DNA of 64,000 nt from Nitrospirota bacterium (GCA_035873375.1 JAYWMQ010000017.1:728-64727); one strand, 5' to 3'. Shown: positions 49,318 to 54,735, counted from the stretch's first letter. The notes: a model not told the origin generated them from the letters alone. A program made the numbers and translations.

Positions 49318-49566
49318 ATGCACAGAAAGATATGCAAAATAGGGAACAGCCAGGGGGTCTCAATCCCTAATGACCTTCTCGAGAAACTACGCCTTTCTCG
49401 AGGGTCTGAAGTTGATGTAAAGCTGGACGAGGAACATTCCCGCATTATTATTGAACCGGCAAGGATAAAGGAATATCCAGAAGGAATTAACAGGGATTTT
49501 GTTGCACAGGTAAATGATTTCGTCAAAAAATACCGTCCTGCCCTTAAAGAACTTGCCAAAAAGTGA
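49318..49566 (+). CDS. AbrB/MazE/SpoVT-family antitoxin
   Basis: 82 aa. KIGNSQGVSIPNDLLEKL swapped-hairpin motif. GGAGG RBS. Confidence 0.85.
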   Translation: MHRKICKIGNSQGVSIPNDLLEKLRLSRGSEVDVKLDEEHSRIIIEPARIKEYPEGINRDFVAQVNDFVKKYRPALKELAKK

Positions 49567-49958
49567 GATATCTCTCTGCAGAACAGGTACTCTTCATACA
49601 TAGCAGGCTGATTGATGAAACAGGGGGGTCCCATGGTATCAGGGATGTTGGACTTCTTCAGTCAGCTGTGGGACGATCAAAAGCGACATACGACGGAAAG
49701 GACCTTTATCCTGATATCTTTCATAAGGTTGCTGCCCTTATGGAATCCCTCATCAAGAATCATCCATTTGTAGATGGCAACAAAAGGACAGCAATAACGT
49801 CTGCCGGTATTCTTCTTCAGATGAATGGATTCATAATAGAAACAAGTCAAAAGGATCTTGAGCGTTTTACCCTTGGTATGGCACATGGAAAAATCCCTGT
49901 GGAAGACGCAGCAGAATGGTTTAAACGTAATTCATTGAAAATAAAAAAACCGGTTTAG
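49563..49958 (+). CDS. doc: Doc (death-on-curing) Fic-fold toxin
   Basis: 131 aa. The GTG start overlaps the antitoxin stop (GTGA). Fic-like motif HPFVDGNKRTA. Confidence 0.9.
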   Translation: MRYLSAEQVLFIHSRLIDETGGSHGIRDVGLLQSAVGRSKATYDGKDLYPDIFHKVAALMESLIKNHPFVDGNKRTAITSAGILLQMNGFIIETSQKDLERFTLGMAHGKIPVEDAAEWFKRNSLKIKKPV

Positions 49959-50070
49959 TCACGAGTAGCGTTGCCAGTTCAAGACTCAAATCACAATGTC
50001 AATGGGGTCTTTATCACTGTCAAAACAGGACAGAAGAATCGCATAAATTGCTCATGCGACACCTTCAGGA

Positions 50071-51303
50071 TCAGGCACTACCCCATTTTGAAAGTTTCTT
50101 TAAATCAGGCAACGTCCGGCCATTGAAGAAGTCGCAGGCCCTGTAGTACTGGATGTCCTGAATCCATAGTTTCATGTATGCACGGTCCGTCACCATCCGC
50201 TTAAAGAAACCGAGGGGGGATGAGGTGAGGTCCCGGAAGGGGCCAAAAAGTTCAGAGGGATCCCTGAAACACTCCCAGTCGCATTTCCTGCAAACAGGCC
50301 TGCAATCCTTATCTGATAAATCCATCTCCCAGAACTTGCCGAGGCTCTCGTCTCCCCTGTATCCGCACGGATAGGTGTCACCACTGCGGGCATCTATAAA
50401 GAAAAACTCCTCTCCACCCCTGCAGGGATAGCAGTTCCAGTCTCCGGCAGTATATTGCCTTATCAGGCTGAAGAGGGAGCTCCTTGGAGAGAAGATCCTT
50501 ATCCTCGACCTGTAGGCTGGAATAGTATCAAAAAGGGCTTTAAAGAGCAGCGGTTTCTGATGTGCTGCAAACTTCACAACATCATCCTCTGACGTTGCCC
50601 TGTAAACAGCGTCATTATGTACAGGACCGCTGTCACTGCTCATGGGATAACATGCATTTGAAATAGTAAAACCCATATCTATGATAAAGTCAAAAAAGTT
50701 CTTGAATGCCCCCCTGAAATACTCATAAAACTCCACTGCATCCATTTTTCTTCCGGGAAAAAGGCCGTTTATATTTCTGTTTATCCCAAGGTTTGCCGAC
50801 GGGTAAATCCCGTGCTCGTGAAATATGGGCAGGGCCTTTTTAATGCCCTCGATTACCCCCGGTAACCCCCTCATGGATTCGTGAACCTCGGGAACTGCTG
50901 AGTCAATACTTATCCAGAAGGTATAAATCCCGGTTTCAGCAAGTTTTTCTGCAATCCCGGCAATCCTGTCGCGGTATCCCGGGCTGTCATGATCTGCAAA
51001 GAGAAAACCGTTTGTCCCGGTCCTTATATATTTAATGCCGGCATCCCCTGCATACTTTATCATCCTGATTATCTCATCAAAAAAGAGAAAGGGCTCGCCG
51101 CCGGTAAAAGAGATGGCCTGCATCCCCCTCTGTGAGGCAGAATCAATTATCTGTTTTACCACATCAGTAGAGAGTTTTGATCTTGGGAATTTTTCAGAAA
51201 CCCTCATCCCGCACTGCGGACAGCGTGCATTGCAGATATCCGTGTACTGAATAACGAGTTGTCCGGGGATGGTTTTCTTCAAAAGTGTTCCGATTGCGGT
51301 CAT
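50071..51303 (-). CDS. radical SAM protein with a C-terminal Cys-rich (SPASM/twitch-like) region
   Basis: 410 aa. CNARCPQCGM is a CxxxCxxC motif; the GGEP motif is FTGGEPFL. C-terminal Cys residues lie in NCYPCRGG...YPCGY...CRPVCRKCDWEC. Confidence 0.88.
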   Translation of the reverse strand: MTAIGTLLKKTIPGQLVIQYTDICNARCPQCGMRVSEKFPRSKLSTDVVKQIIDSASQRGMQAISFTGGEPFLFFDEIIRMIKYAGDAGIKYIRTGTNGFLFADHDSPGYRDRIAGIAEKLAETGIYTFWISIDSAVPEVHESMRGLPGVIEGIKKALPIFHEHGIYPSANLGINRNINGLFPGRKMDAVEFYEYFRGAFKNFFDFIIDMGFTISNACYPMSSDSGPVHNDAVYRATSEDDVVKFAAHQKPLLFKALFDTIPAYRSRIRIFSPRSSLFSLIRQYTAGDWNCYPCRGGEEFFFIDARSGDTYPCGYRGDESLGKFWEMDLSDKDCRPVCRKCDWECFRDPSELFGPFRDLTSSPLGFFKRMVTDRAYMKLWIQDIQYYRACDFFNGRTLPDLKKLSKWGSA

Positions 51304-53714
51304 TCAACCACGGCCCCGGCAAAGGAATCCCTGAGAATTGTAGAGTACATATCCTTGGGGTGTATGGCCTTGTTCTCGACAAACCGCCTTGCACTCTCAC
51401 CCATGATTCCGGTCTTTTCCCTGTTCATTAAAAAAAGCGCAAGGGCGTCTGCCAACAATGTTTTGTTGTCGGCACTTATAACAATACCTGTTTCATTGTT
51501 TATCATTAACTCCCTTGGCCCCCCCTTGTCAGAAACTATAACCGGCAAACCCGACGCCTGTGCCTCAAGCACTACATTTCCAAAGGTATCGGTTGTACTT
51601 GGAAAGACAAAGACATCTGAAGAGGCATATATTGCAGAGAGTGCTTCTCCTTCAAGAAAACCTGTAAACAAAACAGGATATCCACTCAATCTCTTCTCAA
51701 GTTCAGACCTGTACGGCCCGTCTCCGACCACAACAAGGTCAACACAAAACCCCCGGTTGATCGTCTCAATAAAGGCATCGGCCAGAAGCTCAAGGTTTTT
51801 CTCCTTTGAGATACGCCCAACGTAGAGAAACTTCATCTCTCCGTTCAGACTGTATCTCTGCCACATGGCCTCGTTCCTCTTCTCTGGAGAAAAGACCCCG
51901 GTATCAACCCATCTGGGCAACGGCCTTATCTTTTCAGGGGACAGACCCTTTTCAATAAGTTGATTCTCGGTGCTTTTGGACGGGACGAGCACTTCATCCA
52001 TCTGACTGTAAAACCAGATTATATAGTTCCAGGCAGTGTTTTCAAGAAAGACATCGTCCGTAAGACTCTTTACGTATTGAGGGATATCCGTGTGATACGT
52101 TGCCGAGATCGGGATGTCCATCAACTTTGATACAAGGAGGGCCAGGAGACCAAGGATTCCGGGAGTGCTTGCATGAATCCTGGTAAACCCTTCCTTTTCA
52201 AGAAAATCAACCACATCAAGAATAGGGGGGAAGTGCAGGCGGAGCTCAGGGTATTCCGGAATTGCAAATTCTCCAACAGACTTGAAATTCATTATTCCGT
52301 CCCCTGCCCCTGTCTCCTGATTATTGCATGTAACCACTGTCAGCTCAACACCCCTGGTTTTTGATGTCTCGATCAGCTTCTTTATTGTAATGGCCACGCC
52401 GTTTATTTCATTAATGGTATCTGTAAAGAGCACGGTCTTTTCGCAGCCCCCGGAGCCATTGAGTCCAAACCGTCCCTTTAACCCGCTCATAAGCCTCTTA
52501 CTCCGGTGCTGATGAAAGAATGCGACATAGTATGGCGAGATGAGCAGATGAACCATCCCGATACTGTTTAATAACTGTAGTATCCTGAAAATGCCGTTAC
52601 TGGATGGTATCTTCAGCAACTGATTTGTATAGATGTATATCATCCTGTTTGCAAGATAACTCGTTATCCTGAATATCCTCCTGTTTCTGTCCTCACTGTT
52701 GATGCTCTTCAGAAAGCTCATATCATTAACAAGTCTCTTTGCCTCACGGTCGAGTATCTCCTCAAAACTCCTGTCATCATAAGAGTTATACATCTCAGGG
52801 ATATTCTTTCTTACAAAGAACTTTATCTTGTCGATAAGGGAAACCTTTCCTGAATTCTCGTCAAATAATCTGTTTAACAGATAGTCGATAAACGGGGTCG
52901 CATTCCTGGTCCCTGATTTCAGTCTCTCAGAGTAAAATCTGTAGCCAATACCATATATGCTGTGGGCAAGGGTCAAGGGGTCGCCGTCATCCCCCTCTGC
53001 CCACACACGTTTCTCTCCTATCGAGGCCAGGAAATCATCCAAAGTCCTGCCTTTCCGGGTAACCGTATATGCCCTCGCAATAAAAAATCCGCTATGGTCA
53101 TCAGAGCCCCCAACCGTTGCCTTATGCCAGGAGGTCACACTGCACGGAGATATATCATGCCGGTCCAACAGTCTTTCATAACTATCAGGGTCGAGTGAAG
53201 ATACAACGCTGCTTATCAACGAATTAAATTGCTCCGCCCTTGCACCATTCTTCACCTCAAAGACATCAAACATCATCAGCATCTTCTCAATGACATCCAC
53301 AGTCAGCTTTTCATTCATGTCGTAAAGGGGATGAGAGACAAAATGGACAATGCCCTCCGTCTGGAGATATGCTACAAGTTCGTAAACATTTCTTCCCAGG
53401 GTCATAAGCTCCCTGAAACTGCTCTCGGATACGTCCAGAACGATAACGTGAATCTTGCATCCGTTTTCCGGAAAGTATGCTGTAACCTCAGCACTTATAA
53501 AGACACCGGGCATGTGGGCAATCTCCAGTGCACCATCTATTGTGTTATGGTCTGTTATCGTTACATAGTCCATGCCCATCTTTCTGGCTGTATTGTAAAT
53601 AAAACGGGGCGAGGTAAAACTCTCCGGACAGTTAAGCTTTCTCATTGCCCAGATGGAGGATTTGTTGGAAAAGTTTGAATGCACATGCAGGTCCGATCTA
53701 TAGAGCTGTTTCAT
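51300..53714 (-). CDS. fusion protein: N-terminal PHP-domain phosphoesterase plus C-terminal GT4 (group 1) glycosyltransferase
   Basis: 804 aa. The N-terminus SDLHVHSNFS...ITDHNTIDG...GGSDDHS gives the PHP metal ligands. The C-terminal ~380 aa have a GT-B fold with the EAQASGLPVIVSDKGGPRE motif. There is a 4-nt overlap with the radical SAM gene. Confidence 0.85.
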   Translation of the reverse strand: MKQLYRSDLHVHSNFSNKSSIWAMRKLNCPESFTSPRFIYNTARKMGMDYVTITDHNTIDGALEIAHMPGVFISAEVTAYFPENGCKIHVIVLDVSESSFRELMTLGRNVYELVAYLQTEGIVHFVSHPLYDMNEKLTVDVIEKMLMMFDVFEVKNGARAEQFNSLISSVVSSLDPDSYERLLDRHDISPCSVTSWHKATVGGSDDHSGFFIARAYTVTRKGRTLDDFLASIGEKRVWAEGDDGDPLTLAHSIYGIGYRFYSERLKSGTRNATPFIDYLLNRLFDENSGKVSLIDKIKFFVRKNIPEMYNSYDDRSFEEILDREAKRLVNDMSFLKSINSEDRNRRIFRITSYLANRMIYIYTNQLLKIPSSNGIFRILQLLNSIGMVHLLISPYYVAFFHQHRSKRLMSGLKGRFGLNGSGGCEKTVLFTDTINEINGVAITIKKLIETSKTRGVELTVVTCNNQETGAGDGIMNFKSVGEFAIPEYPELRLHFPPILDVVDFLEKEGFTRIHASTPGILGLLALLVSKLMDIPISATYHTDIPQYVKSLTDDVFLENTAWNYIIWFYSQMDEVLVPSKSTENQLIEKGLSPEKIRPLPRWVDTGVFSPEKRNEAMWQRYSLNGEMKFLYVGRISKEKNLELLADAFIETINRGFCVDLVVVGDGPYRSELEKRLSGYPVLFTGFLEGEALSAIYASSDVFVFPSTTDTFGNVVLEAQASGLPVIVSDKGGPRELMINNETGIVISADNKTLLADALALFLMNREKTGIMGESARRFVENKAIHPKDMYSTILRDSFAGAVVE

Positions 53715-53788
53715 TGTATAATCTCTCCGTTTACCATAGTCACGAAAAGGCCTGGATTTTTATGCATGCGATTACTAGTCATCAGTCC

Positions 53789-53974
53789 TCAACCCGGCGC
53801 TAATTTAGCACCCTGAAGACTCGCTACCTGACCCTGCATATCAGAATAGAAAGGACATTTTCTGTGGTCCTTGTTTTTACAATACTCCAGAAGCTGAAAA
53901 CGGCTCGGCATATAAGGGGTATCTCCAGCCCTGCAGGATGATACTATCCAGTCTCTAAGAAACGGGCATTTCAT
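53789..53974 (-). CDS. 61-aa Cys-rich peptide P1 (first gene of the PHP-GT4 / radical SAM operon)
   Basis: MKCPFLRDWIVSSCRAGDTPYMPSRFQLLEYCKNKDHRKCPFYSDMQGQVASLQGAKLAPG. A strong GGAGGAGGGAAGGA RBS precedes the internal ATG at 53974, while the track start at 54064 lacks one. Confidence 0.55.
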   Translation of the reverse strand: MKCPFLRDWIVSSCRAGDTPYMPSRFQLLEYCKNKDHRKCPFYSDMQGQVASLQGAKLAPG

Positions 53975-54203
53975 TAATCCTTCCCTCCTCCATAAAAAAG
54001 CAGTGTTTTTACCAAACAGCGCGCTTCCAGAAAAAACAGGTCCTTTATTCACCTTCCCAGTCATGGAATTCTCTGAATACCATGACTCTAAGATAGCAGG
54101 TGCATGTTACAGGGGTATTAAAGAAATGTTAATTTTTACCGGATTCAGCAAAAAGCCTTGATCAAGAAAAGGAAGTGATATGATTGACTCTGAACGGATT
54201 TAA

Positions 54204-54242
54204 GTATCACAAAAGATTCACCTGGATGGTGAATCGTGATAC
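54204..54242 (-). terminator. hairpin downstream of the response-regulator gene
   Basis: GTATCAC-AAAA-GATTCACC / GGTGAATC-GTGATAC gives 15 pairs with a 4-nt bulge. The U tract on the minus strand is weak. Confidence 0.45.
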
Positions 54243-54345: not shown

Positions 54346-54735
54346 TCACGTCTCCCGGCAGGCCGTATCGAGATAAAACCCGACCTTTCTCCTTAGTTCA
54401 AAGACATCCCCCTTACATATATACCCTGCAACCCCGCATTTCAAAGCCGACTTTCTCAGGCTGTCTTCATCATTTGATGAGTAAAACACCACCGGCACAT
54501 TCCTGGTACTGCCGTTAGTACGGAACAGCATGGAGAGTCTGTCACCGGACAGTGCCGGCATATTAATATCGAGCAGCACAAGGTCAGGCTTGAGTTTCAT
54601 CACTGCACTGGTAGAGCCGATCCAGTGATTGTGGGTAACCACCTCATACCCTGCATCCTCCAAAAGCCCTTTTGCAGCAACAAGATGCCTCTCATCATCA
54701 TCTATAACCAGTATCTTTCTTGCAGTTCTTTCCAT
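54346..54735 (-). CDS. single-domain response regulator (CheY-like receiver)
   Basis: 129 aa. ILVIDDD, the phospho-acceptor context VLLDINMP, and a conserved K. Confidence 0.9.
   Translation of the reverse strand: MERTARKILVIDDDERHLVAAKGLLEDAGYEVVTHNHWIGSTSAVMKLKPDLVLLDINMPALSGDRLSMLFRTNGSTRNVPVVFYSSNDEDSLRKSALKCGVAGYICKGDVFELRRKVGFYLDTACRET

What the first reader, a model, noticed from the sequence alone, without database searches (positions are those of the whole stretch)
50071..53974. Operon: 61-aa Cys-rich peptide, PHP-phosphoesterase::GT4 glycosyltransferase fusion, radical SAM enzyme
Three co-oriented genes have minimal spacing.
- **P1 (53789-53974):** a very strong RBS, four Cys residues, and a CPF...C...YC...CPFY layout.
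- **PHP-GT4 fusion (51300-53714):** begins 74 nt later, 804 aa, joining a PHP metal-phosphoesterase to a GT4 glycosyltransferase. I do not recognise this architecture as characterised.
- **Radical SAM enzyme (50071-51303):** overlaps the fusion gene by 4 nt and carries a Cys-rich C-terminal auxiliary-cluster-like region.
There are two readings. It could be a RiPP-like pathway in which the radical SAM enzyme and glycosyltransferase modify the Cys-rich peptide. Or it could be a glycolipid or sugar-phosphate modification pathway with P1 as a small metal-binding accessory. Either way this looks like an uncharacterised system.
Basis: inference. Interest (0 to 1): 0.65.

Follow-up and report, generated by a model that had tools for sequence, protein, structure and literature searches.

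The report
Phosphate-starvation glycolipid operon with radical SAM partner
The three genes are real and are probably switched on by phosphate starvation to replace membrane phospholipids with phosphorus-free sugar lipids; this is not a peptide-modification pathway, and only the big enzyme's family has been studied before.

Summary
On the minus strand lie P1 (61 aa, four Cys), an 804-aa PHP::GT4 fusion and an overlapping radical SAM gene.

The interpretation needs revision. An element of 11-bp-spaced TTAACA-like repeats sits upstream of P1. The same element precedes phoA and pstS in relatives, and in this window a phosphate-selective porin gene and a kinase/regulator unit. It recurs 48-60 nt upstream of the fusion gene in Nitrospirota and Geobacterales. 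In one relative (L012) the fusion and radical SAM genes lie among PhoA, PsiE, PhoH and an OlsF-like gene.

The fusion family covers more than 546 species. It appears to include Dde_3613 of Desulfovibrio alaskensis G20, which is annotated with the same architecture. A Dde_3613 mutant lacks all glycolipids under phosphate limitation.

Best model: a Pho-regulated glycolipid synthase whose PHP domain supplies diacylglycerol (inferred).

The radical SAM enzyme is a partner in about 37% of loci. It has SPASM/twitch-like cysteines, no RRE, and no known reaction.

P1 belongs to a family of about 413 small-protein clusters, usually found beside pst operons. A RiPP role is unlikely.

The parts
54094..54132 (-). 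Pho-box-like element: TTAACA-N5-TTAATA-N5-GTAACA-N5-CTGCTA (11-bp phase), about 120-160 nt upstream of the P1 start codon.
   Evidence: Exact match to the triple-repeat pattern. The window has 3 matches against 0.13 expected. The element is conserved in the P1 upstream regions of L085, L087 and L089. The same pattern precedes phoA, pstS and a HAD phosphatase gene in L087 (7 matches, 0 expected).
53789..53974 (-). P1: a 61-aa protein with four invariant Cys and one invariant His (CPFL..C..PY.PS.FQL.EYC...DHRKCPF). Member of an unannotated small-protein family.
   Evidence: Strong RBS. Homologues of 59-67 aa. Third-position-biased divergence. A profile search finds 413 cluster representatives at E<=1e-3.
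52980..53714 (-). PHP metal-phosphoesterase domain of the fusion protein (residues 1-245).
   Evidence: Pfam PHP_C 22.2 bits and PHP 17.6 bits. H10, H12, D55, H56, E76, H89, H128, D205 and H207 are invariant or nearly invariant. pLDDT is mostly 80-96. No sequence relative in the PDB.
52455..52979 (-). All-helical middle region of the fusion protein (residues about 246-420), with a conserved, moderately hydrophobic helix pair at 374-400. No family match.
   Evidence: Secondary structure from the AF2 model. Hydropathy maximum 1.56 at residue 374, family mean 0.96. No Pfam hit.
51300..52454 (-). GT4 (GT-B, retaining) glycosyltransferase domain of the fusion protein (residues about 421-804, plus the stop codon).
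   Evidence: Pfam Glycos_transf_1 5e-33 and Glyco_transf_4 1e-22. Best NCBIfam match is GlcNAc-phosphatidylglycerol synthase, 132 bits. Foldseek matches: BshA, MshA, HepE, SPS, PimA/B.
50071..51303 (-). Radical SAM enzyme, 410 aa. CxxxCxxC at residues 24-31 (nt 51211-51234). SPASM/twitch-like Cys region C294-x13-G-x4-C313 ... C338-x2-C341-x3-C345 ... C390 (the C294-C345 core is about nt 50254-50436). The gene overlaps the fusion gene by 4 nt.
   Evidence: Pfam Radical_SAM 1.2e-15. Conserved cysteines. AF2 pLDDT 88.6. Nearest folds are SkfB, BlsE, SuiB, anSME and DesII.
50038..50060 (-). Weak terminator-like hairpin just after the radical SAM stop codon; the likely end of the operon.
54215..54235 (-). 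Terminator-like hairpin that closes the upstream kinase/regulator unit, so P1 starts a new transcription unit.
54346..56273 (-). Neighbouring predicted Pho unit: Pho-box-like site (56246-56273), an 80-aa Cys-rich protein (55940-56182), a histidine kinase (54736-55920) and a single-domain response regulator (54346-54735).
   Evidence: Homologues of the 80-aa protein also lie close to Pho-box-like sites in L012.
56368..57815 (-). Neighbouring predicted Pho unit: Pho-box-like site (57788-57815), a phosphate-selective porin O/P gene (56449-57627) and a strong terminator (56368-56393).
   Evidence: Pfam Porin_O_P 3.9e-16; motif; terminator.

Best explanation
P1, the PHP::GT4 fusion and the radical SAM gene form one transcription unit of a phosphate-starvation (Pho) regulon, and its core job is to make phosphorus-free glycolipids.

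1. When phosphate is scarce, a PhoB/PhoP-type regulator binds the 11-bp-phased TTAACA repeats upstream of P1 and activates the operon. The motif and its distribution are shown; binding and induction are inferred.
2. The GT4 domain transfers a hexose or hexuronic acid from a nucleotide sugar onto diacylglycerol, giving MGDG/GADG-type lipids. This rests on the same-architecture protein Dde_3613, whose mutant lacks these lipids.
3. The fused PHP metal-phosphoesterase supplies the diacylglycerol and frees phosphate, by cleaving phospholipid head groups (phospholipase-C-like) or by dephosphorylating phosphatidate. It would be a non-homologous functional analogue of PlcP, joined to its Agt-like partner in one polypeptide. 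This step is inference.
4. The SPASM/twitch-like radical SAM enzyme is an optional accessory, adjacent in about 37% of loci. It most likely carries out a radical modification of the sugar head group or its donor, such as decarboxylation, dehydrogenation or epimerisation. This is a weak inference.
5. P1 is a small Cys4(His) protein, probably metal-binding, from a family that lives next to Pho-regulon genes. One member is fused to a receiver domain, which suggests a signalling or accessory role rather than a substrate role.
For: Pho box:
- The pattern occurs 3 times in the window against 0.13 expected: upstream of P1, of the small-protein/kinase/regulator unit, and of a Porin_O_P gene.
- In L087 it occurs 7 times against 0 expected, upstream of phoA, pstS, a HAD phosphatase gene and P1.
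- Perfect copies lie directly upstream of pstS in L093 and L094.
- A triple repeat scoring >=14/18 lies within 160 nt upstream of the fusion gene in 31 of 81 loci against 1.6% of background windows. It sits at a fixed -48 in Geobacterales and -60 in Nitrospirota.

Context:
- L012 carries PhoA, a PHP + GT21/HpnI-like lipid GT pair, the fusion, the radical SAM gene, an OlsF-like gene (418 bits), PsiE and PhoH, with Pho-box-like sites throughout.
- Geobacterales loci carry PPK1 and Ppx next to the fusion gene.
- Phosphatidylserine-decarboxylase-like and LGT-like genes recur nearby.

Published genetics:
[quoted passage not shown] Its mutant makes no MGDG/GADG and grows poorly under phosphate limitation (PMC5193443).
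- Full-length homologues at 41-42% identity exist in Desulfovibrio and Maridesulfovibrio.

Enzyme features:
- The PHP catalytic residues are invariant.
- Several of the stronger NCBIfam GT4 hits, including the best one, are lipid glycosyltransferases.
- Fusion and radical SAM genes are adjacent, often overlapping, in 26 of 71 loci.
- A stand-alone radical SAM gene in a Clostridia genome has TTAACA-N5-TTAACA-N5-TGAACA upstream.
Against: - No expression or binding data exist for this organism; the Pho box is a motif inference.
- I could not align the window protein with Dde_3613 itself. The link rests on the annotated architecture and on Desulfovibrio-family homologues.
- The closest solved GT4 structures (BshA, MshA, SPS) use soluble acceptors.
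- No confident membrane segment is present.
- The PHP domain has no characterised close relative, and no PHP enzyme is known to me as a phospholipase C or phosphatidate phosphatase.
- G20 makes MGDG and GADG, and the Desulfovibrio and Maridesulfovibrio relatives I examined (L075, L078) have no radical SAM gene next to the fusion gene, so the radical SAM role is not explained by the known products.
- About 60% of fusion loci lack both a clear Pho box by my score and the radical SAM gene.
Confidence: 0.68

Rival explanations
1. RiPP pathway: the radical SAM/SPASM enzyme cross-links the Cys-rich P1 peptide and the GT4 domain glycosylates it.
For: A Cys-rich 61-aa ORF heads the operon. The nearest radical SAM folds include the peptide maturases SkfB, SuiB and CteB. 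P1-like ORFs are linked to the pair in three lineages: the window, L085, and L014, where the ORF lies downstream of the radical SAM gene.
Against: - No RRE/PqqD domain, and no Pfam SPASM hit in 47 family members.
- The radical SAM cluster motif starts at residue 24, leaving no room for a leader-binding domain.
- More than 20 fusion+radical SAM loci have no P1-like ORF, even at E<=10.
- The radical SAM gene is found alone in Bacillota, Clostridia and Beggiatoa-type genomes.
- P1 family members sit beside pstSCAB-phoU with no radical SAM gene nearby, and one is fused to a receiver domain.
- The first 45 residues of P1 are conserved throughout, like a folded domain rather than a leader plus core.
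Confidence: 0.04
2. Soluble sugar-phosphate pathway. The GT4 domain glycosylates a phosphorylated small acceptor and the PHP domain removes the phosphate, as in sucrose-phosphate synthase/phosphatase or MshA/MshA2. The product would be a solute or cofactor precursor, which the radical SAM enzyme then modifies.
For: The best structural matches are BshA, MshA and sucrose-phosphate synthase. Fusions of a glycosyltransferase with a phosphatase are the usual design for such two-step pathways (established knowledge). No transmembrane segment is present.
Against: - Pho-box control and the Pho/lipid-remodelling neighbours (OlsF-like, GT21, PSD-like, LGT-like) point to membrane lipids.
- The mutant in the same-architecture protein Dde_3613 loses glycolipids.
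- The best NCBIfam GT4 hit is a lipid head-group transferase.
Confidence: 0.12
3. Envelope-polymer remodelling under phosphate stress: the fusion protein removes phosphate from an envelope glycan or lipid A precursor and substitutes a sugar, analogous to the teichoic-to-teichuronic acid switch.
For: Pho regulation. There is a weak NCBIfam hit to TuaC and to exopolysaccharide GT4 enzymes. An unknown secreted protein of about 700 aa recurs next to the fusion gene.
Against: The carriers are diderm bacteria without teichoic acids. GT4 enzymes act in the cytoplasm on nucleotide sugars. The Dde_3613 phenotype is specifically a loss of MGDG and GADG.
Confidence: 0.07

Closest known systems
Dde_3613 ('Agt') of Desulfovibrio (Oleidesulfovibrio) alaskensis G20, the MGDG/GADG synthase needed under phosphate limitation (PMC5193443)
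   Same: The annotated architecture is the same: PHP N-terminal region plus group-1 glycosyltransferase. It matters only under phosphate limitation. Full-length homologues of the window protein exist in Desulfovibrionaceae.
   Different: - I could not align the two sequences directly; the Desulfovibrio-type homologues in hand are only about 41% identical.
- The paper treats the protein as a plain Agt homologue and assigns no role to the PHP domain.
- The Desulfovibrio and Maridesulfovibrio relatives I could examine (L075, L078) have no radical SAM gene or P1-like ORF next to the fusion gene; the genes flanking Dde_3613 itself were not seen.
PlcP-Agt lipid-remodelling system of SAR11, Phaeobacter, Sinorhizobium and Agrobacterium (PMC4796936; Semeniuk et al. 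2014 as cited there)
   Same: Both have a Pho-box-preceded unit that joins a phosphoesterase to a GT4 glycosyltransferase, with the logic phospholipid -> diacylglycerol -> MGDG/GADG under phosphate stress.
   Different: The phosphoesterase here is a PHP-fold domain, not the PlcP family. It is fused to the GT rather than encoded separately. A radical SAM gene is translationally coupled in about a third of loci. The carriers are anaerobes (Nitrospirota, Desulfobacterota, Brocadiia).
SPASM/twitch radical SAM enzymes acting on sugars or cofactors (BlsE, DesII, BtrN, AhbD)
   Same: Radical SAM core plus a C-terminal Cys-rich auxiliary-cluster region. BlsE gives the best TM-score (0.55/0.67) and the best PDB sequence hit (9e-8). 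AhbD is the best NCBIfam hit, at 67 bits.
   Different: All scores are far below family cut-offs. Only six conserved C-terminal cysteines are present, with CX2CX3C in place of CX2CX5CX3C. The Pfam SPASM model does not match. The substrate is unknown.
Sucrose-phosphate synthase/phosphatase-type GT-phosphatase fusions
   Same: A GT4-type GT-B domain fused to a phosphohydrolase in one polypeptide.
   Different: The phosphohydrolase there is a C-terminal HAD domain. Here it is an N-terminal PHP domain, and the context is the Pho regulon and lipid genes.

Membership tests
GT4 glycosyltransferases (GT-B, retaining) | Two Rossmann-like halves matching Glyco_transf_4 and Glycos_transf_1, plus the EX7E-type motif. 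| tested here: met
   Pfam 81.3 and 114.5 bits, both above the cut-offs. D709-x7-E717 is invariant. Foldseek matches to BshA and MshA at E about 1e-20.
PHP metal-dependent phosphoesterase superfamily | Conserved metal ligands: HxH, (T)DH, E, H, H and DxH (GSDxH). | tested here: met
   H10/H12, D55/H56, E76, H89, H128 and D205/H207 are invariant or >=90% conserved in 55 sequences. PHP_C is above the Pfam cut-off; PHP is below it, at 17.6 against 26.4 bits. No PDB sequence relative.
Dde_3613-type PHP::GT4 glycolipid synthase | N-terminal PHP plus C-terminal group-1 GT in one protein of about 800 aa. | tested here: met
   Window protein. Dde_3613 annotation in supplement file 6 of PMC5193443.
Dde_3613-type PHP::GT4 glycolipid synthase | Sequence orthology to Dde_3613 over the full length. 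| not testable with these tools
Indirect support: full-length matches at 41-42% identity in Desulfovibrio and Maridesulfovibrio (L075, L078).
Dde_3613-type PHP::GT4 glycolipid synthase | Required for MGDG/GADG formation under phosphate limitation. | not testable with these tools
   Needs lipidomics of a mutant or of a heterologous host.
PlcP-Agt lipid-remodelling system | Pho-box / phosphate-starvation control. | tested here: met
   By motif only.
PlcP-Agt lipid-remodelling system | The phosphoesterase is a member of the PlcP family. | tested here: not met
   The N-terminal domain is PHP-fold, and no other phosphoesterase family matches the fusion protein. The system can work like PlcP-Agt without being a member.
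Radical SAM superfamily | CxxxCxxC cluster motif in a partial TIM barrel. | tested here: met
   C24/C28/C31 are invariant. Pfam Radical_SAM 58.5 bits. AF2 model and Foldseek matches.
SPASM/twitch subgroup | C-terminal CX9-15GX4C ... CX2CX5CX3C ... C motif binding one or two auxiliary clusters. | tested here: inconclusive
   C294-x13-G-x4-C313 is present. The second block is CX2CX3C (C338, C341, C345), followed by C390. Pfam SPASM matches none of 47 members. The nearest folds are SPASM/twitch enzymes.
RiPP radical SAM maturase with precursor peptide | RRE/PqqD-like leader-binding domain. | tested here: not met
   There is no N-terminal extension and no PqqD hit.
RiPP radical SAM maturase with precursor peptide | The precursor gene is consistently adjacent to the maturase gene. 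| tested here: not met
   A P1-like ORF is present in only 3 lineages of loci carrying the radical SAM gene. P1 family members lie next to pst operons without a radical SAM gene.

The most novel reading that the evidence does not exclude
Three linked novelties remain open.
- The PHP domain is a new class of lipid phosphoesterase (phospholipase C or phosphatidate phosphatase). Fused to a glycolipid synthase, it would make a single-polypeptide converter of phospholipid to glycolipid, widespread in anaerobes.
- The coupled radical SAM enzyme turns the product into a glycolipid head group not yet described.
- The P1 family is a previously unrecognised, widespread small Cys4 protein of Pho regulons, with a signalling or metal-handling role.
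Probability: 0.3. Interest if true: 0.65.

Novelty: new variant of a known kind. Interest (0 to 1): 0.5.

Why it matters
Phosphorus-free glycolipids in anoxic waters and sediments are used as markers of phosphate stress. Yet the source of diacylglycerol in anaerobes was not identified in the G20 study, which nowhere mentions PlcP.

- If the PHP domain supplies diacylglycerol, one gene present in more than 546 species would account for lipid remodelling in sulfate reducers, Geobacter, anammox bacteria and Nitrospirota. It would also be a clean marker gene for metagenomic and transcriptomic surveys.
- The radical SAM partner could point to an unknown anaerobic lipid head-group chemistry.
- The P1 family adds an unannotated small protein to Pho regulons.
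- The Pho box defined here (TTAACA-type hexamers in 11-bp phase) can be used to map Pho regulons in uncultured Nitrospirota.

Tried and rejected
- P1 against the other small Cys protein at 55940-56182: no detectable similarity. They are treated as separate families.
- PDB sequence searches. The whole fusion protein gave only GT4 hits. A profile of the PHP plus helical half gave nothing.
- Literature searches for PHP + glycosyltransferase + radical SAM, PHP + glycolipid + phosphate, and Geobacter lipid remodelling found nothing describing this operon.
- Search for pst, phoA, olsF, psiE or phoH elsewhere in the window: none. The local Pho cluster is therefore limited to about 50.0-57.8 kb.
- RiPP indicators (RRE, SPASM HMM, conserved precursor adjacency): all negative.
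- Transmembrane anchoring of the fusion protein: hydropathy is only borderline, so no membrane segment is claimed.
- Pho boxes upstream of distant P1-family genes (L093, L094, L095, L097): none found. The boxes there lie between the P1-like gene and pstS in L093 and L094, and none was found in L097. Pho control of P1 is therefore claimed only for the window lineage and its close relatives.
- The 229-aa PHP protein paired with a GT21 gene in L012 is not a close relative of the fusion's PHP domain (E = 0.22). It counts only as a parallel.

Full report
**What is there.** On the minus strand, the ORF listing shows three genes:
- P1 at 53789-53974 (61 aa from the ATG at 53974; a longer 91-aa reading starts at 54064);
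- an 804-aa ORF at 51300-53714;
- a 410-aa ORF at 50071-51303 that overlaps it by 4 nt.

P1's ATG is preceded by GGAGGAGGG. The 804-aa protein has a solid GT4 C-terminal half and weak PHP/PHP_C hits at its N-terminus. The 410-aa protein is a radical SAM enzyme.

**The fusion is a large, conserved, mostly unannotated family.** A protein search returned 1619 hits. The best 120 are full-length (about 800 aa) at 57-94% identity, from Nitrospirota, Brocadiaceae, Geobacter/Geotalea and other Desulfobacterota, and all are named only 'glycosyltransferase'. The PHP hallmark residues (H10, H12, D55, H56, E76, H89, H128, D205, H207) are invariant or nearly so, so the phosphoesterase site is intact. No solved structure is detectably related to the N-terminal half by sequence. 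An AF2 model (pLDDT 83.7) shows a PHP barrel, an all-helical middle region (about 246-415) and a GT-B domain whose nearest structures are BshA, MshA, HepE, SPS and PimA/B.

**The radical SAM partner.**
- In 26 of 71 loci with enough flanking sequence, a close homologue (about 55-70% identical) lies directly next to the fusion gene. It is downstream in nearly every case and often overlaps it. This holds in both the near (>55% identity) and far (about 41%) clades of the fusion.
- The family also occurs alone in Bacillota, Clostridia and a Beggiatoa-type genome.
- The conserved cysteines are C24/C28/C31, then C294-x13-G-x4-C313, C338-x2-C341-x3-C345 and C390. That is SPASM/twitch-like, but the Pfam SPASM and PqqD models match none of 47 members.
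- The AF2 model (pLDDT 88.6) is closest to SkfB, BlsE (best TM-score), SuiB, anSME and DesII.
- There is no room for an RRE, because the cluster motif starts at residue 24.

**P1 is a real gene but not a dedicated partner.**
- The word-index search found three close homologues of 59-67 aa.
- Divergence is strongly biased to third codon positions.
- In L085/L086, P1 precedes a deletion chimera that joins PHP residues 1-307 to radical SAM residues from about 93 to the end. The same operon therefore existed there and decayed.
- In L087-L089, P1 lies beside a HAD phosphatase gene, phoA, pstSCAB and phoU.
- A profile search of 1.84 billion representatives found 413 family members at E<=1e-3, almost all 50-125 aa.
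- Three of these (P0244, P0245, P0250) lie immediately upstream of pstS-pstCAB-phoU. One (P0278) is fused to a response-regulator receiver domain.
- An HMM of P1 found no P1-like ORF in more than 20 other fusion+radical SAM loci. The exception is L014, where one lies downstream of the radical SAM gene.

**The Pho box.** Aligning the P1 upstream regions revealed a conserved element, TTAACAT-N4-TTAATAC-N4-GTAACAT-N4-CTGCTAT, with 11-bp phasing. This is the architecture of PhoB/PhoP binding sites (established knowledge).
- In L087 the triple-repeat pattern occurs 7 times against 0 expected. The sites lie upstream of P1, the HAD phosphatase gene, a small PHP gene, phoA and pstS.
- In the window it occurs 3 times against 0.13 expected: upstream of P1 (54105-54132), of the 80-aa Cys protein/kinase/regulator unit (56246-56273), and of a gene that Pfam identifies as a phosphate-selective porin O/P (57788-57815).
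- Each of the three units ends in a terminator-like hairpin.
- Perfect copies precede pstS in L093 and L094.
- A triple repeat scoring >=14/18 lies within 160 nt upstream of the fusion gene's start in 31 of 81 loci against 1.6% of random windows. It is fixed at -48 in Geobacterales and -60 in Nitrospirota.
- A stand-alone radical SAM gene in a Clostridia genome carries TTAACA-N5-TTAACA-N5-TGAACA upstream.

**Context.**
- Locus L012 (a Thermodesulfovibrionales genome) is a Pho island. It carries PhoA, a 229-aa PHP protein next to a GT21/HpnI-like lipid glycosyltransferase, DUF3047, an MCP, the fusion, the radical SAM gene, an unknown 684-aa protein, an OlsF-like ornithine-lipid synthase (418 bits), PsiE, a homologue of the window's 80-aa protein, a kinase, a P1-like ORF and PhoH. 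Pho-box-like sites are scattered through it.
- Geobacterales loci place PPK1 and Ppx beside the fusion gene.
- Divergent phosphatidylserine-decarboxylase-like and LGT-like genes recur nearby.
- The window itself has no pst, phoA or olsF genes outside this cluster.

**Link to published work.** Bosak et al. [quoted passage not shown] A transposon mutant in Dde_3613 ('Agt homologue') lacks all glycolipids and grows poorly at low phosphate. [quoted passage not shown] That is the same architecture as the window protein. The paper never discusses the PHP domain or a source of diacylglycerol. I could not fetch the G20 sequence to align it. Desulfovibrio and Maridesulfovibrio genomes do carry full-length homologues of the window protein at 41-42% identity. 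The PlcP-Agt paradigm, a Pho-box-preceded phospholipase C gene in an operon with a GT4 gene, is described in PMC4796936.

**Interpretation.** The operon is best read as a Pho-regulated lipid-remodelling unit.
- Shown: gene structure; domain identity; conservation; the fusion/radical SAM linkage; the motif and its enrichment upstream of bona fide Pho genes and of the fusion gene; and the Pho/lipid neighbourhood.
- From the literature: a protein of the same architecture is required for MGDG/GADG synthesis under phosphate limitation.
- Inferred: the PHP domain produces the diacylglycerol acceptor (a PlcP analogue); the radical SAM enzyme modifies the head group or its donor; P1 is an accessory or signalling protein.

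The RiPP reading fails its defining tests. A soluble sugar-phosphate pathway and envelope-polymer remodelling remain minor rivals.

**Novelty and score.** The physiological role is a known kind (phosphate-stress glycolipid synthesis), and the fusion family seems to have one genetically studied member. Four things are new here:
- recognition that this 'Agt' is a PHP fusion found in more than 546 species;
- its predicted Pho box in several phyla;
- the translationally coupled radical SAM partner;
- the P1 small-protein family beside Pho loci.

I rate it a new variant of a known kind, interest 0.5.

Noticed in passing
window 55940-56182 (-), with a Pho-box-like site at 56246-56273; L012 18540-18704 and 20992-21168: A second, unrelated 80-aa Cys-rich protein (MCPKFKDGICEV...) heads the kinase/regulator unit behind its own Pho-box-like site. 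Its two L012 homologues also lie close to Pho-box-like sites. No Pfam or NCBIfam match.
   Followed up: partly
L085 4146-6014 and L086 4406-6274: A 622-aa ORF behind the P1 homologue is a deletion chimera. Residues 1-307 match the PHP half of the fusion protein (59% identity); the rest matches the radical SAM protein from about residue 93. The GT4 domain and the CxxxCxxC motif are lost. It is seen in two assemblies from the same study.
   Followed up: partly
L036 12500-16900; also L025, L028, L031, L043, L045, L050 and L057 near the fusion gene: A recurrent triad sits next to the fusion gene in Geobacterales, Magnetomicrobium and Desulfococcaceae genomes: an 815-aa protein with no family match, a divergent phosphatidylserine-decarboxylase-like protein and a divergent LGT-like membrane protein. 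It could be a second, unknown lipid head-group pathway, possibly for a phosphorus-free aminolipid.
   Followed up: partly
L012 13861-15915; L031 7594-9759; 22 members in the fetched loci: A protein of about 700 aa with a signal-peptide-like N-terminus and no Pfam or NCBIfam match lies next to the fusion gene in about 15 loci, mostly Geobacterales.
   Followed up: no
L012 4512-6518: A stand-alone 229-aa PHP protein lies directly upstream of a GT21/HpnI-like glycosyltransferase gene, behind a Pho-box-like site. This is an unfused phosphoesterase + lipid-GT pair, parallel to the fusion but built from different families.
   Followed up: partly
L096 7001-7567 (P0278): The P1 domain is fused to a response-regulator receiver domain, in a cluster of PAS histidine kinases and a sigma-54 activator. 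This hints that the P1 family acts in signalling.
   Followed up: no
L001 5290-7955; also L023, L032, L049, L051: In several Geobacter genomes, a GH3-family (acyl-acid amido synthetase-like) gene and a 360-aa protein with no family match (it looked like an alpha/beta hydrolase by eye only) lie directly upstream of the fusion gene.
   Followed up: no
window 49318-49958 (+): An AbrB/MazE-type antitoxin gene (82 aa) overlaps a Fic/Doc toxin gene (131 aa). The pair is convergent with the radical SAM gene and marks the end of the Pho cluster.
   Followed up: no
L093-L095, L097, L098: Distant P1-family genes sit at the end of runs of small unannotated ORFs (68-92 aa; some are HMA_2 or DUF5132), next to a P-type cation ATPase gene and just upstream of the pstS Pho box. 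This may link the family to metal handling.
   Followed up: no
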